IMG/VR virus record: IMGVR_UViG_3300036939_000003
Location: 1 to 51,693 of that record
Length of the DNA stretch: 51,693 bases
Source: a virus
Lineage: Duplodnaviria; Caudoviricetes
Direction: 5' to 3' (one strand)
In this document: positions 20,616 to 48,317 of the stretch, piece after piece
How positions within the stretch are numbered: position 1 is the stretch's first letter
Layout of the letters: each line of letters starts with the position of its first letter
The notes under the pieces: generated by a model
Seen by the model: only the letters and a program-made list of their open reading frames with translations
What the model was told of the DNA's origin: nothing
Database searches by the model: none
Translations under genes and position numbers: made by a program

Positions 20616-21266
20616 CTATTCCAAATCATTAGGGTTATCCAGATAAGGCTGCCAATAATCCATCATTTTGAGAGCGTGGAGTGTTTTTCTGCCAGCACTT
20701 TCAACTTGTTCTCTGCCTTCTAGTAGCATACTGACGCTCCCGATGTATCCGACATCTCGGCAATCGCCGTAATGAAAAGCAGGATTATCTTTTGCTTCCT
20801 TAAAATCCGTTCTCCGAAATACTTCTAGTTTGGCTTGTTTGTATGGTTCTCTATGCCAATTATATTTGTAATCAAGTCGCCTAATATGAAAGGAAAATTC
20901 TTCGCTAATATAAAGAAGCCTTTCGTTTTGGTTCTCATAGCAAATAACTTTTGATTGAGCGTTGCGCTCAATCCACATATAGCAATCGCCGTGCATTTCA
21001 CCGAAAGCGTTTTTTCGTGAGAAATTCTCGCGTTCTGTCATTACTTCATAGGCTTGATTAAATATAGGTAGTCTTTGGATAAGGCGAAGCGCGGCGTATC
21101 TATCATAAAACCATTGCAAATGAAGTTCACCGACATCATCTAGGCTTAAATATTTATCAGGATTCCAATAAAACTTATTGTCTACCTCTCGTTTTATTGA
21201 AGCGCGAAATTCATCTTTGAATTTATTTAATTCTGTTTCCGCTTCCGAAAGTTGAATTTCATTCAT
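20616..21266 (-). CDS. Hypothetical protein
   Basis: 216-aa ORF with no recognised motif. Confidence 0.7.
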   Translation of the reverse strand: MNEIQLSEAETELNKFKDEFRASIKREVDNKFYWNPDKYLSLDDVGELHLQWFYDRYAALRLIQRLPIFNQAYEVMTERENFSRKNAFGEMHGDCYMWIERNAQSKVICYENQNERLLYISEEFSFHIRRLDYKYNWHREPYKQAKLEVFRRTDFKEAKDNPAFHYGDCRDVGYIGSVSMLLEGREQVESAGRKTLHALKMMDYWQPYLDNPNDLE

Positions 21267-21282
21267 AATTTTTCACCCCATA

Positions 21283-21324
21283 AACACAAAAACGCCCGCA
21301 CTCCCTTTCGGAAGTACAAGCGTT
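21283..21324 (-). terminator. 15-bp GAAA-capped hairpin with U tract in the leader of 21266
   Basis: AACGCTTGTACTTCC-GAAA-GGGAGTGCGGGCGTT then TTTGTGTTT; G-U pairs work only on the minus strand. Confidence 0.6.
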
Positions 21325-21333
21325 ATGTTAAAT

Positions 21334-21389
21334 AAAAAAATCCCTCTCAAACTATAAAGTTTGAAAGAGAAGTAAGTAAGTTGCGCAAA
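21334..21389 (-). ncRNA. Putative antisense small RNA of about 55 nt
   Basis: Upstream TTGACA (21422-21417) and TAAATT (21398-21393); 13-bp terminator stem plus U7; 5' part is complementary to 24540-24560. Confidence 0.65.
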
Positions 21390-21523
21390 TTAAATTTAAT
21401 CCAAAAAGATTAATCGTGTCAAATAAAATATGAGACTGAAAATTAAAACGGCTTGACTTGATGCTGAAAGCCATTGACGGCGCTCGCATCTTTTGAAGTA
21501 TTTAGTTGTTTCGAGATCGTATT

Positions 21524-21763
21524 TCATCTTCCTAAATTTTGCATATTGTTACCAATTTGGGCGACCATAGATTCTGTTATAAGAATAGTTCCAATAGCAA
21601 CGGCTATTGATACAGCTATAGCAATAATACCAATCACCATGCCGACATTCTTAATTTGCTTATTTGTGCTACTGCTGACGAAAGCGATTTGGAATATTTC
21701 AACACCTTTATACATGAGATAAACGCAAAGCAGATAAATCATTATTTGCATTAAGCCAACCAT
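21524..21763 (-). CDS. Small membrane protein (two hydrophobic segments)
   Basis: 79 aa; AAGGAG RBS. Confidence 0.7.
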   Translation of the reverse strand: MVGLMQIMIYLLCVYLMYKGVEIFQIAFVSSSTNKQIKNVGMVIGIIAIAVSIAVAIGTILITESMVAQIGNNMQNLGR

Positions 21764-21764
21764 T

Positions 21765-22199
21765 TCAATTCTCCTTTAATTCAGTAACCACAATACTGGA
21801 ATCTTTTATATTCTTTTTATCAACGGGCTTGAGTTGTTTTATGTCGTAAGCTCCGCTTTCTTTACCGATCAATGCTAAACCGGCTGGCATTAGCTTTCCG
21901 TCAGATTGCCAGTTCATTCGGATATAGTAAGTTTCTCCAGGCTCAAAGTTCATTTCTATCCCGCCAAACTTTTTATTCTTTAGTCTGAAGGTATGTTTAC
22001 CCGCTTCGATCTGAGCGATAAAGAATTTAGCGGGACGAATCTCTGCGATTTCCTTATCGTCAAGAAAGATAGGCTTTTTAACAGTTCCGAGTGTTGTTCC
22101 AGCGGCGTAAGAGTAAACATAAACAATCGCTCTAGCTGCCTGACCAAAAGCCGTAAAACTAAAAGTTAATATTAGCAGTGTAATAATTAGAGTTTTCAT
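21765..22199 (-). CDS. Secreted DUF2846-like protein
   Basis: Signal peptide MKTLIITLLILTFSFTAFG; AIVYVY...GKHTF...GETYYIR pattern; start moved to 22199. Confidence 0.7.
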   Translation of the reverse strand: MKTLIITLLILTFSFTAFGQAARAIVYVYSYAAGTTLGTVKKPIFLDDKEIAEIRPAKFFIAQIEAGKHTFRLKNKKFGGIEMNFEPGETYYIRMNWQSDGKLMPAGLALIGKESGAYDIKQLKPVDKKNIKDSSIVVTELKEN

Positions 22200-22200
22200 A

Positions 22201-23277
22201 TTATCCTTCTGACTTTTCGCCTTCGTAGAAAGCAAAGACGCGCCTTAATTGTTCGGCGTGATTGTAAATATCGTTAAGATTTGTAATAGCAACACGTTCT
22301 TCACTACGCTTTTCATCGAAAATTCCCAAATATTTTTGATTGCGGTTGAAATAGAGACGGGCGAGAGGTTTTCTATTGTTATCATCGAGAAGGATGCCCA
22401 TATAGCTTTTTGTGTCTCTGTGAACGATTCTCTTTGGATCAACCATATCTCTGAGTAATGACTTGATAATATAAAATCCTTCTAACTCATCTGCTGTGGT
22501 ATCAATCTCATCTTCACGGCTTACAGGTTCTGCTTTTTCGGGTTCCGGTTCGCTTGGTAAAGGACTGCCGGACATAACTGATTTCAGACGGTCATTGATG
22601 CGGTCATTTATCAGTTGATTGAAGGCGCGTTTTACTATTCCGTTAAAATATTCGCGCCTGGTTGGAGTCAGAACACCGGAAAACACGTTTGAAGCGACAA
22701 GTTTTACAAAATCATCCGTGGGATTTTCGAGTTGTTGGGTGAGAATCTTTTTAATCTGACGGGTGTATTTTAACTCACCTGCGGTTGCCATTATTTCATC
22801 AATATTAAATTGTTGTTTGGTTAGTTTTTTAAGTTCGGTTAAGGCAACATCATCTAGTTCCGTGATATTAAACTCGAAAAATGGTTTTTCATCCATTTTG
22901 TTCGGAGCTTCAAGATCGGTAAAGAATCTATAAACCAAACCATTAGTTAATACTGCGATTCGTGCGTCTGTAACTGAAAAGTATCTAAATAACTGCGAGG
23001 CATGATTAATACTCAAATCGCCGCCGCAATGTTTGCACTCAAAGAGCATTATTATTTTGTCATCTTTTTTAATTGCGTAATCTACTTTCTCGCCTTTCTT
23101 GATACCGACATCAGCAATAAATTCCGGTACAACTTCAGTTGGATCAAAGATGTCATAACCCAGAATGTTTATAAAAGGCATTACAAGCGCGTTTTTAGTA
23201 GCTTCTTCAGTTTGCAGAAGGGAACAAAGTTTTTCGGTTTTATTAGAAAGTTGTTGCAGTTGTTCAATGAAGTCCAT
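22201..23277 (-). CDS. Type I restriction enzyme HsdR N-terminal domain (restriction endonuclease-like) protein
   Basis: TEEATKNALVMPFI..LGYD, GEKVDYAI...FECK (PD-(D/E)xK-like), LTNG..YRFFTDL, ILLDDNNRKP. Confidence 0.85.
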   Translation of the reverse strand: MDFIEQLQQLSNKTEKLCSLLQTEEATKNALVMPFINILGYDIFDPTEVVPEFIADVGIKKGEKVDYAIKKDDKIIMLFECKHCGGDLSINHASQLFRYFSVTDARIAVLTNGLVYRFFTDLEAPNKMDEKPFFEFNITELDDVALTELKKLTKQQFNIDEIMATAGELKYTRQIKKILTQQLENPTDDFVKLVASNVFSGVLTPTRREYFNGIVKRAFNQLINDRINDRLKSVMSGSPLPSEPEPEKAEPVSREDEIDTTADELEGFYIIKSLLRDMVDPKRIVHRDTKSYMGILLDDNNRKPLARLYFNRNQKYLGIFDEKRSEERVAITNLNDIYNHAEQLRRVFAFYEGEKSEG

Positions 23278-23319
23278 TAGGCTTTCTCCAGATTGCCCTT
23301 AAATTGCAAGGTATTTTAA

Positions 23320-23760
23320 TTAAATTCCATAAAGAAACAGTACACGCTGCCTTTCTTTAAAAAGCCAATAGGCGTGCGTTGTCGGATTTTCTTCCAAAAA
23401 TGAGTAATCATTCAACATCGGTAGCGGAATCAGAGCAATAAGCGCAAAAGCGTTCGCTACTAGCTGCTGCTTTGCGTGCATAGATTTCATTGGAACCTGC
23501 AAAACAGCGTGAAATAATTCGTGGAAAGCCGTTTCTAGCCATTTCAGCCCACGCAATCCTTTTTTAATAAAGATATAGTCATCGCCCTCATACCAAACGT
23601 GATAGCCACGTTTTTTGAGTTTTAATTCAGCAATGTCTATTTGACTTGTTTCCCCCAAAACAAAAAAATCTTCAGCCGTTAGAGCACGCTCATTAAAAGC
23701 GGGAATCATTTCTTTTACTCTATCGTATGAGATTTTAATGCAACGGTTATGGCTCTGCAT
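23320..23760 (-). CDS. ImmA/IrrE family metallopeptidase
   Basis: AFHELFH (HExxH) and ANAFA..ALIP; immediately downstream of the repressor. Confidence 0.8.
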   Translation of the reverse strand: MQSHNRCIKISYDRVKEMIPAFNERALTAEDFFVLGETSQIDIAELKLKKRGYHVWYEGDDYIFIKKGLRGLKWLETAFHELFHAVLQVPMKSMHAKQQLVANAFALIALIPLPMLNDYSFLEENPTTHAYWLFKERQRVLFLYGI

Positions 23761-24130
23761 TGTTCTGAGTTTTGAGCGACTTTCTGAACTTTATATACTC
23801 TTTAATATTCAATAAATCTTCTTCATCAAACCCTTCAAAATCTGAGACTTCAAGCGGCGCGGGTAACAGGCTGTTTTCGGGCGCGTGACCGGCTAATGTC
23901 AAAGCTTCGTTTATATCTTTCTCAAAATAAGTAGCTAATCTTTTTACTAAATCTTTTGGTGGTTGACTGGGTTTTTGGTTAGTCGATTGCGGTGAGCCGT
24001 TCATCAACCTATTAATTGTAGCAACGTTGCTTTTTACTGCTATGGCTAAATCTTTTTGTGTTTTGACAGGACAGTTACTAAAACCCTCTTTCATCCAAAG
24101 CGCAAAGGCTTCCGCGTTAAATTTTTCCAC
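23747..24130 (-). CDS. XRE-family immunity repressor
   Basis: TQKDLAIAVKSNVATINRLMNG HTH. The listed start at 24229 overlaps the divergent gene, so GTG 24130 or ATG 24094 is more likely. Confidence 0.75.
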   Translation of the reverse strand: MEKFNAEAFALWMKEGFSNCPVKTQKDLAIAVKSNVATINRLMNGSPQSTNQKPSQPPKDLVKRLATYFEKDINEALTLAGHAPENSLLPAPLEVSDFEGFDEEDLLNIKEYIKFRKSLKTQNNAEP

Positions 24131-24134
24131 GATA

Positions 24135-24482
24135 TTACTAATTTTGTAATATTTTTCATTTCTAGTGTAGATTTTTTCCTTACTAATATAGTAAGATTCA
24201 GGAATGCAGGATAATGATGTTTCAACCATACAATTTGACCCCGATGCCTTAAAAACCGCATTGGAAGAAGCTAATCTCTCGCAAGCGGATTTTAATAGGC
24301 TAATTGGTTTTAAGCACGTAAATACAGTAAATAAGATAATTAAACGAAAAAGAATTGCTACAGCTTCCGAATTGCTTCAGTTCGCATTTGCTCTAAACAA
24401 AGATCCGAAAGAATTTTGTAAAGAAAGTTAAAATAGTTACTAAAATAGTAATTCTTTACTTGACTGATTACTAAATTAGTAA
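24135..24482. promoter_or_regulatory. Four palindromic operators TTACTA-N3-TAGTAA
   Basis: 24135-24149 (1 mismatch), 24180-24194, 24437-24451 and 24468-24482. Confidence 0.8.
24204..24431 (+). CDS. Cro-like XRE HTH protein
   Basis: LSQADFNRLIGFKHVNTVNKII HTH; divergent from the repressor. Confidence 0.75.
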   Translation: MQDNDVSTIQFDPDALKTALEEANLSQADFNRLIGFKHVNTVNKIIKRKRIATASELLQFAFALNKDPKEFCKES

Positions 24483-24488
24483 TAAACT
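24460..24488 (+). promoter_or_regulatory. Early lytic promoter with operator in spacer
   Basis: TTGACT-GATTACTAAATTAGTAA(17)-TAAACT. Confidence 0.75.
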
Positions 24489-24586
24489 CTTAAATGTAGT
24501 CACCAATACTACATATTTTTGAAAATAGGAGAAGAAAGGGAAGTAAGTAAGTTGCGCAAAAACAAACTCGCTTCCCCTTTAACAAA

Positions 24587-25138
24587 ATGGCACATCTGGA
24601 ACACAAATTATTAAAACAAGCTACGGCACAGGTTCTTGCTAATCAATTAACCTACGGCGAAGAACACGGCGCGAGAGCCTGGAAAGCGATTGCAAAAGCG
24701 GAAATTGAGTTAAAAGAAAACGGTTCAATCAGTTTTGAAAACAGTACATTAACCTTCGTCTCGCGCTTTTCAGCTAAACAGAGAATGGTTACAGCCGCAG
24801 GATGCCACGAATCCTGCGATTGCACAGGTCAATATTCATATCACAAAGCATTATTCGATATTTTAACGCGTTACAACGAACTGGAAGCAGAAGAAATGTT
24901 CGCCGCTTTTCCCGAGGCTACTCCGCAGGATGAATTGCAAGCCAGAGCAAAGCAAGCTGGAACCGAATATAAAGCATTTGCAAACTCGCTTCCGTTATGG
25001 GTTAAAGACGAAGCCAAGCAATTCGACTTATGGCTGATGTCTGGCGATGAAAGAAACCGTTGGATTCAGGATAATGCACCGCTTATCAAGCCAACTTCTA
25101 CGTACAAGCCACAGCGTTTGGGTTCAGTAAGGTTCTAA
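24587..25138 (+). CDS. First early gene; hypothetical with SWIM-like Cys/His cluster
   Basis: CHESCDCTGQYSYH motif. Confidence 0.6.
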   Translation: MAHLEHKLLKQATAQVLANQLTYGEEHGARAWKAIAKAEIELKENGSISFENSTLTFVSRFSAKQRMVTAAGCHESCDCTGQYSYHKALFDILTRYNELEAEEMFAAFPEATPQDELQARAKQAGTEYKAFANSLPLWVKDEAKQFDLWLMSGDERNRWIQDNAPLIKPTSTYKPQRLGSVRF

Positions 25139-25175: not shown

Positions 25176-28100
25176 ATGGTTAGATTCCACAAAAAAGAAA
25201 CAAAAGGTGCAGGTGCGAATGGCTCAACCGTTAATGATTGTTGGGTTGATATTTCTTTTCACGGACAAAAAGCCGGGTACATCTACAAAAGCAAAGGTGA
25301 AACATTTTACGTTTCCTCTGTCCATTTTGACGGAGTAGATAAAGAAAACAAATTCACGAGCTTAAAAGGTGCAAAAGATTTTGCTAGGCAAATGCTGAAC
25401 TCTTAACCAATGAAAGCAGGACGTAAATCAAAGGCGTGGGCTAATGCAAGACGCGCCTCTTTGGAGAAACGAAAATGACAAACCAGCAAGAACTTCCTTC
25501 AAAAATCGTATTCCCAAATCTATTTGACAGTACATTACCGCCTACGGAAATGAAGGCAATCGGTCTAGGTGAATTTCCATACGATTGCAGAGCTAAATCC
25601 TTGCGCCCAGACGCAATGGTTTATTACGGCGAAAGTTCTTGGATAGATTCGGGCGATAAAAATTTCGATAAACGCTTGAAGGAATTGGACGAATTTTAAC
25701 TAAGGAAAAAGATTATGTCATACGGATACGGTTTAGGAGTTTACTGGGAAGACTACAACGACCCTGAAGAACCTGATAACGATTGGTGCAATACGTGCCA
25801 AACAACTCTTGATGGGTGTATTTGTCCAGAAGTGTCAGTCATTAACGTTACTTGCCCCAAATGCCAACGAAAGCACGAGGTATTAAACGAAGGGCAGTCA
25901 ACAGATGCGGTTTGCTACAACTGCAAACCAAAAGTTGATTTGGATTTTGAACCACCTTTTTAACAAGGCAAACAGTTTTAGAGATTATCCAAAAGAGAGA
26001 TTATCAATATGAATAAAAGAGAAAAAATAGGATGCACAATCGCAGCTCTACAATTCCTTGTTGTAACACCACTAAGTTACATTTACACATTTTTATTATT
26101 GAGACATATCAATGCAACCGACGCACTTTGGTTGCTTTTCTGGATAAATTTGCCCTTAGCCCTAATTGTTTCAGTCGTATTTAAATACATTGAAATATTT
26201 TTATCAGAAAAGGATTAACCCCTTTTTACTAACGCTTTTAACAAGGCAAACAGTTTTAGAGGTTATAGAGAAGAGAGCAGAAAGATCATGAACACACAAG
26301 AGCGAATAAATTGGATGCTTCGGCACGAAAACCTGTGGAACGACCGGGCGGCACTACTCGAAAAAATGTACGCAGATGGCGTTTACAGCAAAAAACTATC
26401 GAATGTGGATTTCTGCCTGACAGGTTTAATCGAGCGCTGCCGAAAGATTAAAAAACTGACTAAAAACCCATCGTTGCCTATCCAGCCCTTAACAGATTTG
26501 GTAGTGACTACCGACAACTTTGATGAGCTTATCAGCAAGCGCGAGATCAAAGATATTTTAGTCCAGTCAAAGCATCCGGTTAAGCGAATGGATGAAAACA
26601 GTTTTACCTATTACGACTACGCTGTATTCAAAAGACGAAAGCACGGAAAACCACCAACGCACGTTATTGACGAAATAAATACGATTCTTAGCGGTGGAGC
26701 GATTGATTACATTTATTAACCAATAACCCCCTTTACTAACACTTTAGGGCTAACAGATTAAGCATTAAAAATATGAAGACGAAAAAACGATGTTGTATCT
26801 GCGATAACCAGTCCGGCGAAAAAGGGACTTACGAAGAAGTAGAACATTGCCGTAAATGCGGCAGACCTATTTGCGGTTACTGCAAGCCTGCTTGCTGCGA
26901 TTTGGATTAGTTATGAAAAAACCAATAGATATTTTGTTGTTTTGCCCTCAATGCAGTGAGCAACACATTGACAAAGCAGAACCGGATAATTGTCAGGATT
27001 GCGGACACGGACGCAAATTCCATTTTAACGCGGGTGAAAGAAATATTTGCGCTGTCGGCAGGCAAATAACCAACGACAAAATTGATTGCCACTGTGACGG
27101 GTTTACGGCTTGGCTTAATCCACCGCATAAATCACATCGTTGCCATAACTGCAATTACGTTTGGCGACCTTTTGAATATCCGACAAATGGAGTTTTAGCA
27201 ATCAGCTAACCGAGGTAGAAAATGAGAAACGAACCTAACCCAAACCAAACATCTTTATTCACTAACCACCAATACCCTAGCTATCCTGCTATCCGAAAGA
27301 ACTCGGAAGCCTCTAAAGATGCCGCCGAACTCGTAGCAGATTCAGCACAGGTTATCAGAGCGAAAGTCCTTGAAACACTATCAACAGGCGACACGCTAAC
27401 GGCTCAGGAAATAGCCGATAAAGTTGCTCAGGACTTCTGGAACAAAGGGCGCAGGTGGGGCAATGACTTTGAGAAACACTTATTAAAGCTAGAGGACTCT
27501 GTAGAGAGTCGTATATCAGAGCTTAAGAAATCTGAACACATCGTAGCGGTTATTGATATGACCACAGGCAAACCTAAAAGACGCTTGAATCGTGCGGGTA
27601 ATGTTCGGATAACGATTCTAAAACTTAACGTGTCAGGGAAGTAGATCAAGGGGATTTTTTCTTTATGTTTTTCTCTAGGGCGGTAAAGCCGAATGAGTAA
27701 GCCGAGCCGCCTTTTATTAACACTATGAAAACACAAAACATTAAATTCGCAATCATTCTAGCAACTTCTGCCCTCGTATCTTATTCAGCTGGTTATTACA
27801 TCGGCGTAGTTCAAACGGCTGAAGTGGTTAAGGAGCTTATAAAGTAATGTGGAAATTCTTCTTTTACGGAATCGGTCTAGTTCTAGCAATTATCGGAATC
27901 TTTAGCAGAGAAAGTGACGTTATAAAAGCACTTTACGCAATAACAGCACTCCTCGGACTAGGTTTTGGCAAGGTCGTTGAACTTTTGGAGAAACTAAAGA
28001 AATGAAAGTCGAAATTAACGTAACACAGGAACATATAGACAATGGTTTGGCTGATAAATGTTTTGCATGCCCTGTCGCTTTGGCTCTCAGCGAGAAAGTG

Positions 28101-32143: not shown

Positions 32144-32853
32144 ATATGAAACAAGTAACAGAAAACGCGAAAGCTAAGATACTCAAAAGATACACGGTTG
32201 AAGAAATACGCACTATATTCGCCAAACGCCTTGACGATGATTTACTGGCATCGGTGGGCGTTCTGGAAATGGGCGTGGTTTCTCAGCGACATTCCGACCC
32301 GCATATTGCTGTCTGGAAAGGATATGAAATATTAACTGATTCACGTTACTTAAATTTATGACCTTCATTAAAGGATACATATTAACTTTAACCTTTCTCT
32401 GCTTATTCATAACAGCAGAGGAAATGAGGGCGGGGGATTAAATATGCACTGGACAGAAAGAAGCACAGAAGATTTCTTATCAAGGATTACTTTTGATTTT
32501 ATTGCCCAACTTAATCGGCATTCAGATGTTTTTGACGAGGACGAAAAGTTGACTATCGAGCAAATGATTGAAAAGGCTCGTTCGATCGGCTTTAAGGTTG
32601 CGTTAGTTGCTTACAAAGCAGATGCGCCTGTCAATTCTGAAATATTTTCTCGTTGTTGGGAAAAGCAGAGTAAGCCTGCTGACTTCTTTGAACTTGAAGA
32701 AAACTAGAAATGTTAGCAGCAGAGGAAATGAGGGCGGGGGATTAAATGGAAATTCTTTTTATCGGTTTTATCGCAGCGATCTTTTATCTTAAATACCATC
32801 GTAAAAAATGATGTTTTAGAAGCGGAAATAATTGAGTAAAACGCCCATTTTTA

Positions 32854-33062: not shown

Positions 33063-33659
33063 ATGCCATCAGGATACACAGCCATAATAGGCGAAAAAGA
33101 TAATGTTAAGTTTCAGGAGTTTGCGCTTCTTTGTGCGCGAGCTTTCGGCGCAACAATTCTAATGCGTGATGATTCACTGGATGTGCCGATTCCAGAAGAA
33201 TTTCAACCCACTGATTACCACTCTAAACAATTAAAGAAGGCTAATTGGGAACTTGATAAGGTTAAACAAATGACTGATGCGCAAATTAAACGCGCCATCC
33301 TAAAAGAGTTTAACGAAGAAGTTGCTCGAATTACTGGATACATCGAAAAAGATAGGATACTAGCCGAAAAATACGGTCGTATGATTTGCGACGTACAGGC
33401 TTGGAAACCTCCAACTGATGAGCATAAGGAAATGAAAAACTTTATGCTCCAACAACTTCACGAATCCTTAAAATTTGATTGCGGACTTTATAGCGAAACA
33501 GACATTCCAAAAACAATGCCTTCAATAGATGAATGGCGTAAGAAGAAAATCGAAAAGATAGCTAGAGATATTACTTACCATACTGAGGAAAATCAGAAGG
33601 AAATTGAACGGACTAACAAGCGTAATCTCTGGATAAAACAATTAAGAGAAAGCCTTTAA
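33063..33659 (+). CDS. Hypothetical phage protein
   Basis: 198 aa, GGAG RBS; MPSGYTA..FALLCARAFGA. Confidence 0.75.
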   Translation: MPSGYTAIIGEKDNVKFQEFALLCARAFGATILMRDDSLDVPIPEEFQPTDYHSKQLKKANWELDKVKQMTDAQIKRAILKEFNEEVARITGYIEKDRILAEKYGRMICDVQAWKPPTDEHKEMKNFMLQQLHESLKFDCGLYSETDIPKTMPSIDEWRKKKIEKIARDITYHTEENQKEIERTNKRNLWIKQLRESL

Positions 33660-34319
33660 CCCATTAACTTGAGAGGAGAGAAAATGAAAAAACAAATTTT
33701 AGAAACTGAAATACCGACAAACATTGCCTGTCCTGATTGCGGGGCGCGTGTTTGGACTGATAACGACATTGAGTTTTGCAAGGGCTGTTCTTGGTCGAGA
33801 GCCGTTGCCGTTAAACCTGTTCATTACAATCAGCACACACGAGGCGGAAAGCAGCCGAAAATAAACAAATGAAAAAGAGTGAAAGAATATTCTGGATGTT
33901 AATGCGGTGGCTGTTCAAAATCTTACTTACCATCTTTATATTACTGTGCATTTACAGACTTGTTACAGCACCACGTTAACCCATTAACTTGAGAGGAGAG
34001 AGAATGGCTTACATAAGCGAACACGACACGAGGAAAGCAATCATTACTTGTCTGGAAGTTTTGGAAATTAAAGGCGATAACCCAATGATTGACAAATTAC
34101 AGATTGAAGCTAGGGAATTGCTAAGAAACTCATTAAGTTCACTCGATAAAGATTGGCATATTCGACTACTTTTGGATATCAGAAAGGATGTAAGAGAAAA
34201 GTTGATAAATAAATAACAAGTTTCAGGAACGCGGAAATCTAAAAATGGAGGAAATACAAATTATTACGATTAAAACTTCCTCTAGCAAACAAACCAATCC
34301 GCGTTCCTGATTAAATATT

Positions 34320-34760
34320 ATGAGTGAAGAAACTTGGATTTATCTAATTAAAGACAACTTTACAGGTCTACACAAAATTGGTCGTAGCCACGACCCAAAA
34401 GGAAGGTATAAAAAGCTGTGCAAGCAAGATACTTTAATGCCTTACCCTAACGATTTTGTTTTCGTTGGAGCATGGAAATCAACCTCTTTAAGTGAAAAGG
34501 AACTGCACGAAATTTTCGGCTTTTGCAGAAAACGGGGTGAATGGTTTGACCTTTCCGAGGAGGAAGTAGCTTGGATTGAAAGCAAATATTTCTACATCAA
34601 AGAGAATCTTTTCCTCCAAACATCTTTATTCGATAACCTCCTTGACGCTGGATTAATACACACTGCGGTTTATCAACTCAAAGGCGATAAGGAAAAGGAA
34701 ATAGCAAACGCAGACATGGTTGATTATTTAATAGAAGGTTTTGACGAATATTTTATCTAA
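34320..34760 (+). CDS. GIY-YIG (T5orf172/MUG113-like) protein
   Basis: WIYLI...HKIGRS...EKELH...RGEWFDL. Confidence 0.8.
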   Translation: MSEETWIYLIKDNFTGLHKIGRSHDPKGRYKKLCKQDTLMPYPNDFVFVGAWKSTSLSEKELHEIFGFCRKRGEWFDLSEEEVAWIESKYFYIKENLFLQTSLFDNLLDAGLIHTAVYQLKGDKEKEIANADMVDYLIEGFDEYFI

Positions 34761-35758
34761 TGGCTGAAATTCCACAACAAGCAATAAAAGACTGGCATAC
34801 GGTAAAACCGTCAAGTTATGCAGCGTTTTGCCTTATGTGCCAAGTCAAAGACACTCGCTCGGAAGATGTCTATTTAGATCAAGCCAAAGCTTCAGAATAC
34901 GGGATTAAAAAGAGTGCTTACTACTATGCTTTTGATGAACTGGAAAGTGAAAACTGGATTGCCTTTTCCAGAAAAGCGGATGGCAAGAAATGGTGGAAAC
35001 TACTCAAAGGGTTTTCCGCAAACGTTGAAATTGAGCAACCGATTGAAGATGAAAATTCCGCAAACGTGGAAAACGAGAATGAAAAAGAGTCCATAAGCGT
35101 GGAAAATTCCGCAAATACGGAAAAAGAAAGTGAAAAAATTCCGCAAACGTGGAATGAAAATTCCGCAAACGTGGAATCCCCCCTAGAACCCCCTATAAGG
35201 ATAAATATTAACCAAAAAGAAATTAAACCAAAGTATGAAGAAAGTCTTTTCGTCGTTCGCCTTTCGGATAGTGACACGGAATTGAGAAGTGCAATTGCAG
35301 GCAAAATCGGAGAGAAGAAGAAAACTGAACCTGTTTCTCCTGAAGAATGGGTTCAAATCGTTCAGGTTTTCGATAATTGGAAAAGAGTATTCAGAAAAAA
35401 CCGTTCAACTAGACTTACGGCGGAAAGGGGAAGGGCAATTCTAGACAGATTACGTTCAATTCATAAATTCACTGTTGAAGAAATCGAGAAGGCGATCAAA
35501 GGGTGTAGAGCCAGCCCAAATCATAACGGCACTAATGACGGCAAAGTATACGATGAAATAGAACTTATCTGCCGTACAGATCAATTCACTGAAAGGTTTA
35601 TAGGGTATTACGAAGTAGCTAACCAAAACGGAGCAAAAAATGCAATTAGTAAAAACGGAAACGGCAATTATCGAAACGGAAAGCAAACCGCTTTCCCCAG
35701 CAATCAGCGAACTGATGAGGAAACTCTCGCTCTCATCGGAGCAAGCCCCAAAACCTGA
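34760..35758 (+). CDS. Replication initiator protein
   Basis: Internal iteron array; C-terminal VFDNWK...EEIEKAIKG domain; upstream of the loader ATPase. Confidence 0.75.
   Translation: MAEIPQQAIKDWHTVKPSSYAAFCLMCQVKDTRSEDVYLDQAKASEYGIKKSAYYYAFDELESENWIAFSRKADGKKWWKLLKGFSANVEIEQPIEDENSANVENENEKESISVENSANTEKESEKIPQTWNENSANVESPLEPPIRININQKEIKPKYEESLFVVRLSDSDTELRSAIAGKIGEKKKTEPVSPEEWVQIVQVFDNWKRVFRKNRSTRLTAERGRAILDRLRSIHKFTVEEIEKAIKGCRASPNHNGTNDGKVYDEIELICRTDQFTERFIGYYEVANQNGAKNAISKNGNGNYRNGKQTAFPSNQRTDEETLALIGASPKT
35012..35177. repeat. Iteron array, probable replication origin
   Basis: Five copies of consensus AAAATTCCGCAAACGTGGAA near 35012, 35052, 35103, 35135 and 35157. Confidence 0.8.
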
Positions 35759-36422: not shown

Positions 36423-36467
36423 CGGTTAAAAGAGGAATGTATCAGTGGTTAAGTGTAACCATAGGGA

Positions 36468-38228
36468 TTGATTATGGAAAAAGAAAATAAGAAAAATGCA
36501 AGTTTCTTGTCTAATACGCTAACTAACCGCGAATTTGAAATAAGATGGTATCGTCAAAACGGTAAATATTCGGAACGAATCGCCAGAGATGGGCACGGGC
36601 AACTGTACTTAATCGGTGACTGGTCGTGGAATCGAAATTATCCTGAAAAAGCCGAAACAGTTGAACCTTTGATTCGCTTAGCTAAATCCAATTAGCGGCT
36701 TAATATTTATAGCGGAGTGGTTAAGTGTAACCATAAAGATGAGAGGTGAATATGATTGAAACAAAAGATAAACGTAAAAATTCAACAACTGATTCAATGG
36801 TGCAAAAACTGTTAAAAATGGCAGAACTTGCTTCAAAACTCTTACCTCGATGTATTCACGGAAACCCTATGCGCGATTTTACAGGGGCAATTCTTTATCC
36901 CTCATGCGGATGTAAAGAAAAGTTATTTAACAGCAATAAGTATTAATTTATGAGTGAAATAGAACTAATCGGAAAATGTGGATGCGGTAAACCTAACAGG
37001 TATCAGGTACCCAATAATCAATTAGCCTGTAATAAACATCTTCGCTGTCCAACGTATGATGAAGCAGTAAATATGCTGATTCAAGCAAGACAGGAAAATG
37101 CTTTAATGAGAGAAGTTTTAGATTCTATCGCTAACCCGATTCGTGTAATGCAAGAGGAAGCAGAAAAGAAAGGCGCAAGATTAGATGGAATGATGGCAAT
37201 GTCTTTGGCTAATGATGCGAAATGGTTATCACAACAAGCGCGTGAAGTATTGGATAAGGTGAAAAGTGATGAGTGAAAAATATTTAAGGTTAGAAGAAAT
37301 GTTTCGTGTTGATGGCGGTCTTCATCCAGAATATGAAAAAGGTTGGAACGATGCTATTAAATTTGCTATTGAAAACCAAATGGTGTTTTTCGGCTACCGA
37401 GACAGAAACGGGGAAGCCACGCATAAAGGAATAAGAGGTAATTACGCATCAGAATATTTTGGCGAGATTTATGAAAAACTCGAAGCGTTTGAAAGGATTG
37501 CTGATGAAATTAATGAGATACGGAAAGAACATACGGTAAACGACTATTAAATAATGGCTGAACCTGTAAGGAGAATTTAATGAGTGAAATAAAATATAAA
37601 GATGATGGAAAAGGTGAATGGCAGTCTATCGGAGCAGAATTATATTTATCAGGTGCGCTAACTAATAGTAAATATCATTTAGAAATTAAGGCTTATGGTT
37701 CAGATAAAGAATCCTGTCAAATCAATCTTCATAGTCTTTTACAAGACCTTCGGGATGTGATGGAGGATTACATTTTAGAATTGCGTGATGAAATCAAATA
37801 ATGGCTGAACATAACCAAGGAGAATTTAATGAGTTTTGATTTTGAAGATGACGAAGACGATCCGCGTATTTGCGAGATATGCGATGAAGATTTGCCGGCA
37901 GATAGTGAAGATTACAGCATCCACGAAAAATGCGCTGATGTTTTACGTGAGGCTTTGAAATCCCCTATTGCAGTTATTTACCACGATGACGGCACGATTG
38001 AACGATTTAATAATGGCTGAACCTTTCAAATGTGATTGCGGCGAATTAATCAAACCGCCTGAGATTCTTCCGGCGATGGTTCTAGGCGGTTCTGCCGAAT
38101 ACGGAGAGTTTCAAATAAAACTTACCTATCTTTGCCCGAACTGCAAGAAAGAACAAAAGACGCGCTATCGTGGCAAATTGGGGATAGATACCATTGAGAT
38201 TTATTCGATAAAGACTAACCAAAGCTAA
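36468..38228 (+). other. Cluster of small hypothetical ORFs (nin-like region)
   Basis: Seven short co-oriented ORFs, several with Cys pairs; the last starts at ATG 38013. Confidence 0.65.
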
Positions 38229-46223: not shown

Positions 46224-46864
46224 GCGAAGAAAATAAACTCACAGGAAAGCAAAAACTGTTCGCTGATGCCTATATCGGCAAAGCGCATTTTAACGCTCGA
46301 AAAGCGGCGGAAATGGCTGGCTATAACGGTGATTGTAATTCCCTGGCTGTTATCGGTTCGCAGAACTTAAGAAAACTTAATATTTCGAGCTACATCGAAG
46401 AAAAGTTGAAAAATTTCGGAATGGGCGCAAACGAAGTATTAACAAGACTTGCGCGCATTGTAAATGGGGATGTTGACGACTTTTTGAGTGAAGACGGTTT
46501 TTTTGATCTAAAGAAGGCACGGCAGAACGGAAAAACGCCTTTACTGAAAAAACTGAAACAGAAGCGCACCATCAAGCAAAAGAAAACTGAAGTTCGTGAT
46601 GATATGAGAGGTTTTCTTGCTGAAGATGAAGTAGAGGCGATTGAATCAGACGTTGAAATCATTTATGAGGAAGTCGAGTTTGAAATGTATTCCGCACACG
46701 AAGCGTTAAGAGATTTAGGTAAGTTTCATAAGTTGTTTACGGATAAGACCGAACTTAGCGGAACAGTTCAAACTGTCGGTTTGACCAAAGAAGAGTTTGA
46801 AGCAGAAGCGGCTAAAAACATTGCACAGGCTAAAGAAACTTTAAATAAATTTGATGGCGAATAA
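46220..46864 (+). CDS. terS: Terminase small subunit
   Basis: LTGKQKLFADAYI...NARKAAEMAGY, ALRDLGKFHKLFTDK. Confidence 0.9.
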   Translation: MSEENKLTGKQKLFADAYIGKAHFNARKAAEMAGYNGDCNSLAVIGSQNLRKLNISSYIEEKLKNFGMGANEVLTRLARIVNGDVDDFLSEDGFFDLKKARQNGKTPLLKKLKQKRTIKQKKTEVRDDMRGFLAEDEVEAIESDVEIIYEEVEFEMYSAHEALRDLGKFHKLFTDKTELSGTVQTVGLTKEEFEAEAAKNIAQAKETLNKFDGE

Positions 46865-48317
46865 TCCAAACATTTTATTTCGGACAAGGCGGGCTTTTTT
46901 AATGCTTCGGCATTTGGATTTGCAAACCGCTTCCGGTATTCCTGATGCGCGGTGGGAAAAGTTTCAGATTGATGAATTAAATAATGATGCGATGTTCGGG
47001 CTTGAAAGAAAATGCCGCCAGGTCGGCTGGTCTTTTCTTATCGCTATGCGCGGTGTGGCAGATGCGATTCTGGATAAGCGAAGTTCTGTTTATAACTCGA
47101 TAAATCAAAGAGAGGCACAGGATAAAATCAGGTACGCTCGCGCAATATATGAAAACATTCGCTACTACAAGGATTTGCCGAAAATCATCATTGATAATCG
47201 TCAGGAAATAGAATTTGATAACGGCGCAAGATTAATCTCAACGGCAGGCGGGCGCGGAATCCCTAACTCAAACTTTTTCATTGATGAAGCAGCTTGGAAG
47301 ATGAACGCTAGAGAAATCTATACGGGAGCGGTGCCAGTTATTTCAAAAGGCGGCACTTTCCGCATGGGTTCATCGACAAATGGCGCAAGCGGCATCTTTT
47401 GGGAAATTGACACGGAAAGTTTTCAAAAATATCCAGACTTTGTTCGTACGTCAACAAAATGGTGGGAAGTTGAAGCGTTTTGTACGGATGTTAAGAGGGC
47501 AGTTAAAGAAGCGCCGAAAATGTCCACAAAGGAACGTGTTGAAGGATTTGCAACCGAACGCCTTAAGAAAATATTCGCTAATACCGTTTTAGAAGACTTT
47601 CAGCAGGAATATGAAGCCGTTTATGTCGATGAAACGACAGCATGGATTACCTGGGACGAAATCAAACAGAACACGCACAATGACTTGGTATATGAAGCAG
47701 TAACGTGTGAAAAGAACATCGATGAGGCGCTAATTACCATTGAAAGGTTTGGCAAATTAATACAATCGGGGAGTATTGAATCGGTATTCGGTGCGGGCGT
47801 TGACGTGGGACGCACAAGAAATTTAACTGAAATCGGGTTGGTTGGAATCTCTACAACACAGACCTATCCGCTTCGCTTAATGATTTCGCTTGATAACGTC
47901 AAATACGATGACCAATTAACAGTCCTAAAGAAGTTAATGCAGTTCGGAATAGTCAAGATGCTTATTGACAGAAACGGCATCGGCTCAAATTTAGCTGAAA
48001 ACATGGAAGATGCTTACCCTTCAAAAGCTGAAGGGGCACAATTCGCGCTTGAATCAAAAAGACTATGGGCTACAGATGTCAAGATGCGTATGCAGCAGAA
48101 TAAAGTTCCTTTACCGCCTGAGCCGGAATTGGGCTATCAAATCCACTCCATTAAACGAAAGGTTACTGCTTCAGCAAACATGGTTTTTGATACTGAAAAG
48201 AATGAGAAACATCATGCAGATAAATTCTGGATGCTGGCATTAGCACTTGCGGCGGCGAATCAACCAGTCCACGAATTTACGGAACGCTCACAACAGGTTT
48301 TGAGCTTATTAAAATGA
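46851..48317 (+). CDS. terL: Terminase large subunit (Mu gp28-like)
   Basis: KCRQVGWSF Walker A variant, FIDEAAW, SSTNG, GVDVGR, IDRNGIG, HADKFWMLALA. Confidence 0.9.
   Translation: MMANNPNILFRTRRAFLMLRHLDLQTASGIPDARWEKFQIDELNNDAMFGLERKCRQVGWSFLIAMRGVADAILDKRSSVYNSINQREAQDKIRYARAIYENIRYYKDLPKIIIDNRQEIEFDNGARLISTAGGRGIPNSNFFIDEAAWKMNAREIYTGAVPVISKGGTFRMGSSTNGASGIFWEIDTESFQKYPDFVRTSTKWWEVEAFCTDVKRAVKEAPKMSTKERVEGFATERLKKIFANTVLEDFQQEYEAVYVDETTAWITWDEIKQNTHNDLVYEAVTCEKNIDEALITIERFGKLIQSGSIESVFGAGVDVGRTRNLTEIGLVGISTTQTYPLRLMISLDNVKYDDQLTVLKKLMQFGIVKMLIDRNGIGSNLAENMEDAYPSKAEGAQFALESKRLWATDVKMRMQQNKVPLPPEPELGYQIHSIKRKVTASANMVFDTEKNEKHHADKFWMLALALAAANQPVHEFTERSQQVLSLLK

What the first reader, a model, noticed from the sequence alone, without database searches (positions are those of the whole stretch)
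21334..21422. Trans-encoded antisense sRNA matching the leader of the first early lytic gene
Seen: the 21-mer GAAGTAAGTAAGTTGCGCAAA occurs at 21369-21389 and 24540-24560. The first copy is read on the minus strand, from a TTGACA..TAAATT promoter (start near 21386) into a 13-bp terminator with U7 whose G-U pairs form only on that strand. This yields an RNA of about 55 nt with a largely unpaired 5' seed GCGCAACUUACUUAC. The second copy is read on the plus strand in the leader between the operator-controlled promoter (24460-24488) and ATG 24587. Known analogies: P1 C4, P4 CI, N15 CA and P22 sar RNAs. Inference: a second, RNA-based immunity or lysis-lysogeny layer on top of the repressor/ImmA switch, with a minimal seed-plus-terminator design unlike the cloverleaf C4/CI RNAs.
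Basis: partly seen in the sequence, partly recalled or inferred. Interest (0 to 1): 0.8.

Follow-up and report, generated by a model that had tools for sequence, protein, structure and literature searches.

The report
Phage small RNA pairing lytic leader
A temperate phage, probably of soil Acidobacteria, seems to encode a short RNA that base-pairs with the start of its first lytic-side message, and a distant relative has the same design with a different matching sequence, which argues that the pairing is functional.

Summary
The 21-mer is real: exact at 21369-21389 and 24540-24560 (0 of 100 shuffles). It extends to 27 nt (26/27), and the one difference is a G-U in the predicted RNA duplex.

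On the minus strand, copy 1 begins 3 nt after the -10 of a TTGACA-18-TAAATT site and runs into a strand-specific terminator. Copy 2 directly follows GGAGAA in the leader behind the second operator-flanked promoter, where it forms the 5' arm and loop of a hairpin.

The main new evidence is a distant provirus, G440 (first gene 52% identical, ImmA 35%, repressor and cro not recognisable). It has the same layout with an unrelated exact 31-mer at the same two places. It also has the same promoter geometry (TTGACA-18-TATAAA, +3 nt), the same GGAGAA junction, the same hairpin and a terminator. The complementarity therefore co-varies as a block.

Two other relatives (G133, G254) lack the pair. No RNA data exist and Rfam has no match.

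Best reading: a trans-encoded antisense RNA of about 50 nt that opens a split-RBS hairpin, or creates an RNase III substrate, in the early leader. It may also control read-through into xis/int. This follows P1 c4-like logic with a different design, so I call it a new variant of a known kind.

The parts
21393..21422 (-). Promoter-like site of the small RNA: TTGACA, 18 nt, TAAATT. It is preceded by ATTTTATTTGACA, a block shared with G440.
   Evidence: 10 of 12. The repeat starts exactly 3 nt after the -10 hexamer (read). Among 263 fetched loci, the pattern ATTTTAYTTGACA-N18-TAWAWW occurs only at this site and at the equivalent G440 site.
21363..21389 (-). Anti-leader seed. The minus-strand RNA UUUGCGCAACUUACUUACUUCUCUUUC is complementary to 24534-24560 (26 Watson-Crick pairs and 1 G-U). 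Its last 7 nt form the base of the 5' arm of terminator T1.
   Evidence: Duplex energy is -41.8 kcal/mol for the 24 bp downstream of the predicted start. The part of the seed outside the stem is 89% unpaired.
21334..21386 (-). Predicted small RNA of about 53 nt, from the predicted start near G21386 to the U tract.
   Evidence: The start is inferred from the position of the -10 hexamer and has not been observed.
21341..21370 (-). Intrinsic terminator T1: 13-bp stem, UUAU loop, U7 tail. Two G-U pairs make it specific to the minus strand.
   Evidence: Fold energy is -16.2 kcal/mol on the minus strand and -9.4 on the plus strand.
21291..21324 (-). Second tandem terminator T2 (15 pairs). It lies directly before the ribosome-binding site of the 216-aa gene that heads the xis/int side.
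   Evidence: The scan found no promoter-like site between T1 and ATG 21266.
24437..24488 (+). Second operator pair (TTACTAAAATAGTAA and TTACTAAATTAGTAA) around the promoter TTGACT-17-TAAACT.
24515..24533 (+). Conserved leader block ATTTTTGAAAATAGGAGAA. It ends in the Shine-Dalgarno-like GGAG (24528-24531) plus AA and directly abuts the target.
   Evidence: Alignment with the G440 leader. The same GGAGAA|target junction is present in both phages.
24534..24560 (+). Target of the small RNA in the leader.
24538..24576 (+). Leader hairpin. Its 5' arm (GGGAAGU) and loop lie inside the target, and its 3' arm is GCUUCCC. The ATG follows 10 nt later.
   Evidence: arm nucleotides are 0-4% unpaired and the loop GCGCAAA is about 100% unpaired. 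G440 has the equivalent hairpin with different arms.
24587..25138 (+). Target gene (183 aa). It belongs to a family with a conserved C-x3-C-x-C...YH motif and has no ordinary Shine-Dalgarno sequence before its ATG.
   Evidence: HMMER finds 73 relatives. The AlphaFold model has pLDDT 92.6 and no Foldseek match.
21524..24229 (-). Leftward lysogeny operon that ends at the small-RNA locus: repressor (23747-24229), ImmA-like metalloprotease (23320-23760), HsdR_N-domain protein, DUF2846 protein and a 79-aa membrane protein.

Best explanation
The two copies are the two halves of an RNA-RNA regulatory pair.

**Proposed mechanism.**
1. A short RNA of about 53 nt is made on the minus strand, from its own promoter at the far end of the repressor/ImmA operon. 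Read-through of that operon would make the same 3' end.
2. The RNA consists of an unpaired 5' seed followed directly by an intrinsic terminator.
3. The seed pairs over 24-27 nt with the leader of the first gene behind the second operator-controlled rightward promoter.
4. In that leader the target starts directly after GGAGAA. It forms the 5' arm and loop of a hairpin that sits between this Shine-Dalgarno-like sequence and the ATG.
5. Pairing would open the hairpin, moving the GGAG from an effective 6-16 nt to 55 nt away from the ATG. It would also create a perfect duplex long enough for RNase III.
6. Either way the gene is kept silent in a lysogen, or in a superinfecting homoimmune phage, until the promoter is fully derepressed and out-titrates the RNA.

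**Shown here:** the repeat, its anatomy, and its block co-variation in a second phage.
**Inferred:** transcription, the direction of control, and the split-RBS and RNase III steps.
For: 1. **The repeat is not chance.** It is exact over 21 nt and 26/27 over 27 nt. No shuffle reached it (score 49 against a shuffle maximum of 28).
2. **Its edges match a transcription unit.** It starts 3 nt after the -10 of TTGACA-18-TAAATT and ends 7 nt inside the terminator stem.
3. **Strand logic.**
   - The terminator is stable only on the minus strand (-16.2 against -9.4 kcal/mol).
   - The single A/G difference gives a G-U pair in the predicted RNA orientation; in the opposite orientation it would be a C-A mismatch (read).
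4. **Block co-variation in G440.**
   - This provirus shares only distant protein similarity: first gene 52% over 85 aa, ImmA 35%, integrase 28%. The repressor and cro give no hit, and blastn finds nothing in the region.
   - It carries an unrelated exact 31-mer at L175:1679-1709 and L173:6696-6726, 7.4 kb apart (score 63 against a shuffle maximum of 29).
   - The best identity between the two phages' blocks is 11 of 25.
5. **Same geometry in G440.**
   - Minus-strand TTGACA-18-TATAAA, with the repeat starting 3 nt after it.
   - An unpaired seed of about 26 nt, then a long terminator hairpin and a U6 tail.
   - The locus lies between the leftward operon and xis/int.
   - In the leader, GGAGAA abuts the target, which forms the 5' arm and loop of a hairpin (z -3.8). 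The ATG follows 11 nt after the hairpin.
6. **Flanks are conserved while the complementary block is not**. Among 263 loci, the promoter pattern occurs only at these two sites.
7. **Energetics.** The seed is accessible (89% unpaired). Net pairing is favourable: duplex -41.8, opening costs about +13.4 and +14.0, cofold ddG -13 kcal/mol.
8. **Precedent.** Split ribosome-binding sites bridged by a hairpin are documented for T4 genes 38 and 25 (PMC3014915, passages read).
9. **Hfq.** It is present in 3 of 3 Pyrinomonadaceae genomes checked, although a perfect duplex may not need it.
Against: - No transcript has been observed. The only public run that holds this DNA is a DNA run.
- Promoter-like sites as a class are not enriched in this region: 7 found, 11.7 expected.
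- The duplex ends 26 nt upstream of the ATG, so direct occlusion is unlikely. The split-RBS idea rests on two sequences only.
- The effective SD-ATG spacing with the hairpin closed is 13 nt in G440, and 6 to 16 nt in G000 depending on the stem. That is at the long end of what works.
- The target is half buried in the leader hairpin (opening cost 13.4 kcal/mol).
- Relatives with the same gene order lack the pair:
  - G133 scores 22 against a shuffle mean of 21.6.
  - G254 scores 24 against 23.7.
  - G441 and MW202444 have short or no leaders.
  So the module is optional, and only two instances are known.
- This genome also holds other short intergenic direct repeats.
Confidence: 0.62

Rival explanations
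1. Control runs the other way, or mainly so. The short minus-strand RNA is the attenuated leader of the excision/integration genes. On induction, the abundant rightward leader RNA pairs with the nascent RNA, invades the base of its terminator, and lets transcription read into the 216-aa gene, xis and int. This would be trans-acting RNA antitermination that couples excision to induction.
For: - In both phages the gene after the terminator has no room for its own promoter. In G000 there are 24 nt between T2 and the ATG. In G440 there are about 30 nt between the U tract and the xis ATG, and the scan finds no promoter there.
- In both phages the complementarity reaches 5-8 nt into the 5' arm of the terminator stem.
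Against: - G000 has a second terminator, T2, which the pairing does not touch.
- Opening 7 of 13 stem pairs in trans must compete with very fast co-transcriptional folding.
- This reading gives no reason for the conserved GGAGAA-hairpin-ATG design of the leader.
- int and xis may have internal promoters that the scan missed.
Confidence: 0.12
2. The repeat is a double-stranded DNA site bound at both places by one phage protein, for example to loop the immunity region or to block transcription. Each phage would have its own site and its own protein.
For: - Operator sequences also differ between the two phages.
- The two copies bracket the immunity region in both phages.
- TTGCGCAA within the G000 block is a palindrome.
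Against: - Blocks of 21-31 nt that are identical and otherwise asymmetric are unusual for protein sites. The operators in the same phage are 15-bp inverted repeats that vary between copies.
- The block length differs between the phages (27 against 31 nt).
- A DNA site gives no reason for the block to start 3 nt after a -10 hexamer, run into a terminator stem, and form one arm and the loop of an RNA hairpin in both phages.
- The single difference in G000 is G-U compatible in the RNA orientation.
Confidence: 0.07
3. The repeat is a leftover of recombination, such as a short linker used in module exchange or a Campbell-type insertion of the immunity cassette, and has no present function.
For: - This genome holds four other short direct repeats of 20-31 exact nt. 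They lie before the start codons of unrelated small genes.
- Short non-coding repeats are also common in 13 TerL-related genomes.
- The edges are sharp, as expected for a crossover in a short homology.
Against: - Two phages have diverged until repressor, cro and the block itself are unrecognisable, yet each keeps its two copies identical over 21-31 nt at the same two positions. A neutral relic would have decayed.
- No recombinase gene lies between the copies in G000.
- Copy 1 precedes no plus-strand gene, unlike the other repeats.
Confidence: 0.04

Closest known systems
P1/P7 c4 antisense RNA acting on the ant (icd-ant) message
   Same: A phage-encoded RNA acts in trans on the phage's own message as a layer of immunity besides the protein repressor. 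Specificity lies in short complementary blocks that differ between related phages, which gives heteroimmunity (review PMC12197685, passages read).
   Different: - No sequence or structure match to any Rfam family, the P1 c4 RNA family among them if Rfam holds one (recalled, not checked).
- From recall: c4 is processed from the same transcript as its target and is a structured RNA with two short seeds. Here the RNA has its own promoter on the opposite strand, 3.2-7.4 kb away. It has one contiguous 5' seed of 24-31 nt followed by a terminator.
- The target gene here is of unknown function and has not been shown to be an antirepressor.
P22 sar and lambda OOP (cis-antisense RNAs)
   Same: Short phage RNAs that end at an intrinsic terminator and form perfect duplexes with a lysis-lysogeny message. 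OOP promotes RNase III-dependent decay of cII mRNA (PMC12197685, passages).
   Different: Those RNAs are transcribed from the opposite strand of the target locus itself, so their complementarity comes for free. Here the two loci are kilobases apart, and the complementarity has to be maintained by selection.
P4 CI RNA and N15 CA RNA (recalled, no call)
   Same: RNA-based immunity in temperate phages, acting on the leader of the early operon.
   Different: As recalled, these RNAs are processed from the leader they regulate and cause transcription termination. Here the RNA is a separate unit, and the leader has no terminator after the target.
Trans-encoded sRNAs with a 5' seed and a Rho-independent terminator. 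Examples are the antitoxins of chromosomal type I toxin systems with about 20-nt matches to a leader (IstR-1/tisB, recalled) and the phage sRNAs VpdS, PreS and 24B_1 (PMC12197685).
   Same: The minimal design is the same: own promoter, single-stranded seed, terminator with a U tail, and a target in a 5' leader away from the start codon.
   Different: The target is the phage's own early lytic message, not a host gene or a toxin. The complementarity is longer and perfect. The system lies in phages of a likely acidobacterial host.
Split ribosome-binding sites of T4 genes 38 and 25
   Same: A hairpin between the Shine-Dalgarno sequence and the ATG brings them to a working distance: 22 to 5 nt and 27 to 11 nt in T4 (PMC3014915, passages). 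Here the distance goes from 55 to about 6-16 nt in G000 and from 64 to 13 nt in G440.
   Different: In T4 the hairpin is constitutive. Here its 5' arm and loop are the target of a trans RNA, which would make the split site switchable. This is an inference and was not tested.

Membership tests
Trans-encoded base-pairing small RNA | Its own transcription unit: a promoter and an intrinsic terminator on one strand, with no coding sequence between them. | tested here: met
   By prediction only. G000 has TTGACA-18-TAAATT followed by terminator T1. G440 has the same unit with the same spacing. The promoter pattern is unique to these two sites among 263 loci.
Trans-encoded base-pairing small RNA | Complementarity to a message encoded elsewhere in the genome. 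| tested here: met
   24-27 bp with the target 3,171 nt away in G000. 31 bp with the target 7,394 nt away in G440.
Trans-encoded base-pairing small RNA | Co-variation of seed and target among relatives. | tested here: met
   The whole block differs between the phages (best identity 11 of 25) and is perfect within each. This rests on n = 2 phages, and two further relatives lack the pair.
Trans-encoded base-pairing small RNA | The RNA is made and changes expression of the target. | not testable with these tools
   No RNA run is listed for this DNA. The host is uncultured.
P1/P7 c4-type immunity RNA | Sequence and structure homology to the described RNA family. | tested here: not met
   No Rfam match at gathering score over the whole window. 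At E up to 10 in 21200-24700 the only matches are chance-level (E 3.7-6.4), and the one at the small-RNA locus is a terminator-like match to a streptococcal sRNA.
P1/P7 c4-type immunity RNA | Processed from the same transcript as its target, upstream of it (feature recalled). | tested here: not met
   The RNA is encoded on the opposite strand, 3.2 kb from the target.
Cis-antisense RNA (sar, OOP type) | Transcribed from the strand opposite the target, at the same locus. | tested here: not met
   The two copies are direct repeats 3,171 nt apart.
Split (hairpin-bridged) ribosome-binding site | Shine-Dalgarno sequence and ATG too far apart in the linear sequence, with a stable hairpin between them that restores the spacing. 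| tested here: inconclusive
   - GGAG is followed by a hairpin and then 10-11 nt to the ATG in both phages, and the hairpin arms co-vary.
- The G000 leader fold is not significant against shuffles (z -1.3). The G440 fold is (z -3.8).
- About half of this phage's genes lack a Shine-Dalgarno sequence anyway.
ImmR/ImmA-type repressor-protease switch (context of the finding) | An HTH repressor gene followed by, and overlapping, a metalloprotease gene, divergent from a cro-like gene with operators. | tested here: met
   - The repressor matches phrog_3949 (E 4.8e-4) and the protease matches phrog_87 (E 4e-7).
- cro is an HTH_3 protein.
- There are four operators.
- Pfam itself gives no hit for the repressor or the protease.

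The most novel reading that the evidence does not exclude
One duplex may work in both directions as an RNA toggle.

In the lysogen, the constitutive small RNA silences stray transcripts of the first lytic-side gene by opening a split ribosome-binding site.

On induction, the flood of leader RNA both escapes this control and pairs with the nascent small RNA. That melts the base of its terminator, so transcription runs on into the promoterless excision/integration genes. Excision would then be coupled to induction by trans-acting RNA antitermination, with no protein antiterminator.
Probability: 0.15. Interest if true: 0.85.

Novelty: new variant of a known kind. Interest (0 to 1): 0.68.

Why it matters
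RNA-based immunity in temperate phages is known from a few enterobacterial phages (P1/P7 c4, P4, N15, P22 sar). Each of those uses a structured or cis-encoded RNA.

Here a minimal seed-plus-terminator RNA is encoded kilobases from its target. It appears in two distantly related phages, at least one of which is probably a phage of soil Acidobacteria (Pyrinomonadaceae), a phylum with almost no phage molecular biology.

The block swap between the two phages is a natural compensatory-mutation experiment. It suggests a simple, reprogrammable determinant of heteroimmunity.

If the hairpin-bridged ribosome-binding site is what the RNA opens, this would be a switchable version of the T4 gene 25/38 arrangement.

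If the duplex also controls read-through into xis/int, it would be a new way to couple excision to induction.

Both ideas can be tested with small synthetic constructs in a laboratory host, without the uncultured natural host.

Tried and rejected
**Close relatives**
- The 21-mer is absent from viral contigs and a 20-mer from metagenome contigs.
- In 401 Pyrinomonadaceae genomes there is 1 hit with up to 2 mismatches, against 1 hit for the reversed control. That is chance level. The hit is an intergenic chromosomal site.
- The word-indexed protein search found no relative of the 183-aa protein or of the repressor. For the 183-aa protein this was a false negative: HMMER found 73 relatives.
- Of the ten region proteins looked up, the eight that are in the collection are singletons at 90% identity; the other two (ImmA and the DUF2846 protein) are not in it with this exact sequence.
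- No relative was found in viral contigs with the 183-aa protein, the repressor or ImmA as single queries.
- 38 TerL-related virus records lack the 183-aa gene.
- Relatives of the 216-aa protein lie in unrelated contexts: 7 metagenome loci and 0 of 401 family genomes.
- Repressor relatives in 8 of 401 family genomes are too distant. One of them (L120) was inspected and has a different layout.
- 341 class-level genomes gave no member of the first-gene family at E 1e-12.
- The phage collection gave one weak hit, MW202444, in which the gene has no leader.
- The G440 protein as query returned only G440.
- The conserved leader block as a DNA pattern gave 52 stretches in viral contigs. Only G440 is followed by the gene family or carries the repeat.

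**Expression**
- No RNA holder is listed. One DNA run, the possible source of this DNA, holds the stretch.
- Laying its contigs showed cover and no variants at either copy, which is not informative.

**Function of the target gene**
- No Pfam or PHROG family.
- The ESM Atlas gave nothing usable.
- Foldseek against PDB and BFVD gave no match at E up to 0.001.

**Ideas dropped**
- GATTAATC in the promoter spacer as a regulator site: 3 copies, and 13 of 100 shuffles reach that number.
- A plus-strand reading of copy 1: no plus-strand promoter or gene.
- A nut-like element: the copies are in the wrong relative orientation for identical RNAs.
- An att site: no recombinase lies between the copies.

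**Exploratory survey**
- I listed exact repeats in 13 TerL-related genomes. I did not analyse them for this architecture beyond noting that short non-coding repeats are common.

Full report
**Observation**

The window is a complete 51,693-bp virus record with 127-nt terminal repeats. Nothing else matches within 3 mismatches, and 0 of 100 shuffles gave two matches.

The repeat extends to 27 nt with one difference (21363-21389 and 24534-24560). With the 27-mer masked, the flanks share nothing (score 17, shuffle mean 19.1). The one difference is A in copy 1 and G in copy 2. In an RNA duplex between the minus strand of copy 1 and the plus strand of copy 2 this is a G-U pair. In the opposite orientation it would be a C-A mismatch.

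**Surroundings**

Leftward genes:
- repressor (23747-24229; phrog_3949, weak)
- ImmA-like metalloprotease (23320-23760; phrog_87)
- an HsdR_N-domain protein
- a DUF2846 protein
- a 79-aa membrane protein (21524-21763)

Next on the minus strand come, in order:
- TTGACA-18-TAAATT (21422..21393)
- the repeat
- terminator T1 (21370..21341; 13 pairs, U7)
- a second terminator T2 (21324..21291)
- with no room for a promoter, a 216-aa gene, an excisionase-like HTH_17 gene, a 156-aa gene and the integrase

Rightward features:
- an operator pair (24135, 24180)
- a cro-like HTH_3 gene (24204-24431)
- a second operator pair (24437, 24468) around TTGACT-17-TAAACT (24460-24488)
- a leader of about 90 nt that holds copy 2
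- ATG 24587 of a 183-aa gene

The target is therefore the first gene behind the second operator-controlled promoter, with cro ahead of it.

**RNA anatomy**

T1 folds at -16.2 kcal/mol on the minus strand (z -5.1) and -9.4 on the plus strand. The repeat begins exactly 3 nt after the -10 hexamer and ends 7 nt inside the T1 stem. The predicted 53-nt RNA is thus a seed followed by a terminator. The seed is 89% unpaired, both alone and at the end of the operon's 3' UTR.

In the leader, the target directly follows ...TTGAAAATAGGAGAA. Its first part (GGGAAGU) pairs with GCUUCCC downstream, the rest lies in the loop, and the ATG follows 10 nt after the hairpin. No ordinary Shine-Dalgarno sequence precedes the ATG, although only about half of this phage's genes have one.

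The seed-leader duplex is -41.8 kcal/mol. After paying for opening, about -13 to -14 kcal/mol remains. Rfam has no match.

**Search for relatives**

Direct DNA searches and word-indexed protein searches found nothing. TerL places the phage near Pyrinomonadaceae (Acidobacteriota) MAG contigs at 65, 53 and 53% identity. Repressor relatives occur in 8 of 401 genomes of that family. The GC content of their loci (0.40-0.47) fits that of the phage.

A full HMMER scan then showed that the 183-aa protein is not an orphan. It has 73 relatives, matching mostly its N-terminal 110 residues, with an invariant C-x3-C-x-C and YH motif. With a ten-sequence alignment I recovered two IMG/VR proviruses, G440 and G441. 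I also recovered one strong and one weak hit in Pyrinomonadaceae genomes, G133 and G254, and one GenBank phage, MW202444.

**The second instance**

G440 (45,485 bp) has the same order of parts:
- integrase, then an xis-like gene
- a terminator
- a long leftward operon ending in ImmA-like and repressor genes
- operators, a 75-aa cro-like gene, more operators and TTGACA-17-TAGACT
- a leader of about 100 nt
- a 219-aa member of the family

The G440 leader contains an exact 31-mer that recurs once, 7.4 kb to the left, between the leftward operon and xis. A Smith-Waterman test of leader against the leftward region scores:
- G440: 63, shuffle maximum 29
- G000: 49, shuffle maximum 28

The 31-mer is unrelated to the 27-mer of the window (best identity 11 of 25). 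The geometry, however, is the same:
- On the minus strand, ATTTTACTTGACA-18-TATAAA, then 3 nt, then the block. The pattern ATTTTAYTTGACA-N18-TAWAWW occurs only at these two places among 263 fetched loci.
- About 26 unpaired nucleotides, then a long hairpin with a U6 tail.
- In the leader, TTGAAAACTAAGGAGAA abuts the block. The block forms the 5' arm (GGCUUGAAC) and loop of a hairpin whose 3' arm is GUUCAAGCC (z -3.8). The ATG follows 11 nt later.

The two phages are otherwise only distantly related. ImmA is 35% identical, the family protein 52% over 85 residues and the integrase 28%. The repressor and cro give no hit, and there is no DNA similarity in the region. The flanking regulatory blocks align, but the complementary block does not.

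**Negative cases**

- G133 is the strongest family hit and has the same repressor/ImmA/cro order. It has a 120-nt leader with no repeat in 7 kb of leftward DNA (score 22, shuffle mean 21.6).
- G254 has a short leader with an ordinary Shine-Dalgarno sequence and no repeat (24 against 23.7).
- G441 has a short leader, and its leftward side is cut by the contig end.
- In MW202444 the gene follows a CopG-like gene by 10 nt.

The pair is therefore present in 2 of 4 contexts that could be tested by alignment. It is an optional add-on to this kind of switch.

**Interpretation**

Two diverged phages each keep 21-31 nt identical between two sites kilobases apart, while the sequence itself has been replaced. 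This is what selection on base pairing predicts. A neutral recombination scar does not predict it.

In both phages the block is delimited by a -10 hexamer on one side and a terminator stem on the other. In the leader it is delimited by GGAGAA and a hairpin loop. These boundaries argue for an RNA-level function rather than a protein-binding DNA site.

I put the narrower claim, that the pair is a selected RNA-RNA module, at about 0.8.

The duplex stops 26 nt before the ATG, so I propose two mechanisms that are not exclusive:
- Opening a hairpin that bridges GGAG and the ATG. Split ribosome-binding sites of this kind are documented for T4 genes 38 and 25 (PMC3014915, passages read).
- RNase III cleavage of a perfect 24-31-bp duplex, as for OOP-cII (PMC12197685, passages read).

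Both are inferences.

**A second possible role**

In both phages the gene after the small-RNA terminator has no promoter of its own. In both, the complementarity reaches into the base of the terminator stem. On induction the leader RNA could therefore promote read-through into xis/int. T2 in G000 argues against this, and I rate it 0.12 as the sole function and 0.15 as part of a two-way switch.

**Comparison with known systems**

The logic is that of P1/P7 c4: a trans RNA, phage-specific complementary blocks, and a layer beside the repressor. This is not a member of that family. It has no Rfam match, its own promoter on the other strand, and a single long 5' seed with a terminator. It is also not a cis-antisense RNA like sar or OOP. 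My comparison with P4 CI and N15 CA rests on recall.

I found no paper describing this arrangement. The searches were made, so this is weak evidence of absence from print.

**Verdict**

- Novelty: new variant of a known kind.
- Interest: 0.68.

Noticed in passing
window 24094-24482: Four 15-bp operators (TTACTA-N3-TAGTAA and near variants) form two pairs, at 24135/24180 and 24437/24468, and the cro-like gene lies between the pairs. The 160-aa repressor ORF as called overlaps cro and the first operator pair. Its PHROG match starts at residue 38, so the true start may be Met46 (24094).
   Followed up: partly
window 21267-21340; L175:1592-1632: In both phages there is no room for a promoter between the small-RNA terminator and the next gene (the 216-aa gene in G000, xis in G440), and none was predicted there. 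The excision/integration side seems to depend on terminator read-through.
   Followed up: partly
window 25945-26277, 32410-32747, 33656-34006, 36444-36740: Four pairs of near-identical blocks of 25-55 nt lie 272-320 nt apart. Each sits just before the start codon of a consecutive small gene, and the small genes are unrelated. They look like repeated translation-initiation cassettes.
   Followed up: partly
window 35051-35191: Four close copies of a GAAAATTCCGCAAACGTGGAA-like unit lie inside the 332-aa ORF 34760-35758. They look like iterons of a replication origin.
   Followed up: no
window 24587-25138: The 183-aa protein heads a family of at least 73 cluster representatives, which the word-indexed search missed. 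The AlphaFold model is confident (pLDDT 92.6) but has no Foldseek match in PDB or BFVD. The family has an invariant C-x3-C-x-C...YH motif. In 5 of 6 contexts seen it follows a cro-like gene, and in the sixth a CopG-like gene.
   Followed up: partly
G440:34987-35002 (in L176): A 16-nt exact match to the G440 leader (GAAGGCTTGAACGGTT; 13 nt of it are complementary to the G440 small RNA) lies inside a 383-aa plus-strand ORF in the structural region. It may be a second target or a chance match.
   Followed up: no
window 46851-48317 and whole record: The host is probably Pyrinomonadaceae (Acidobacteriota). The best TerL matches in species-representative genomes are three MAGs of that family (65, 53 and 53%). 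Repressor relatives occur in 8 of 401 genomes of the family, and one strong first-gene relative occurs there too. The only run that holds the DNA is a biocrust metagenome.
   Followed up: partly
window 22201-23277: The HsdR_N-domain gene in the lysogeny operon shares 65-77% DNA identity over 90-350 nt with genes of Firmicutes and Fusobacterium phages. It looks like a widely exchanged accessory gene.
   Followed up: no
window 21396-21527: A 43-aa minus-strand ORF overlaps the stop codon of the 79-aa gene (ATGA) and covers the small-RNA promoter. Its Shine-Dalgarno spacing is poor, and I did not decide whether it is coding.
   Followed up: no
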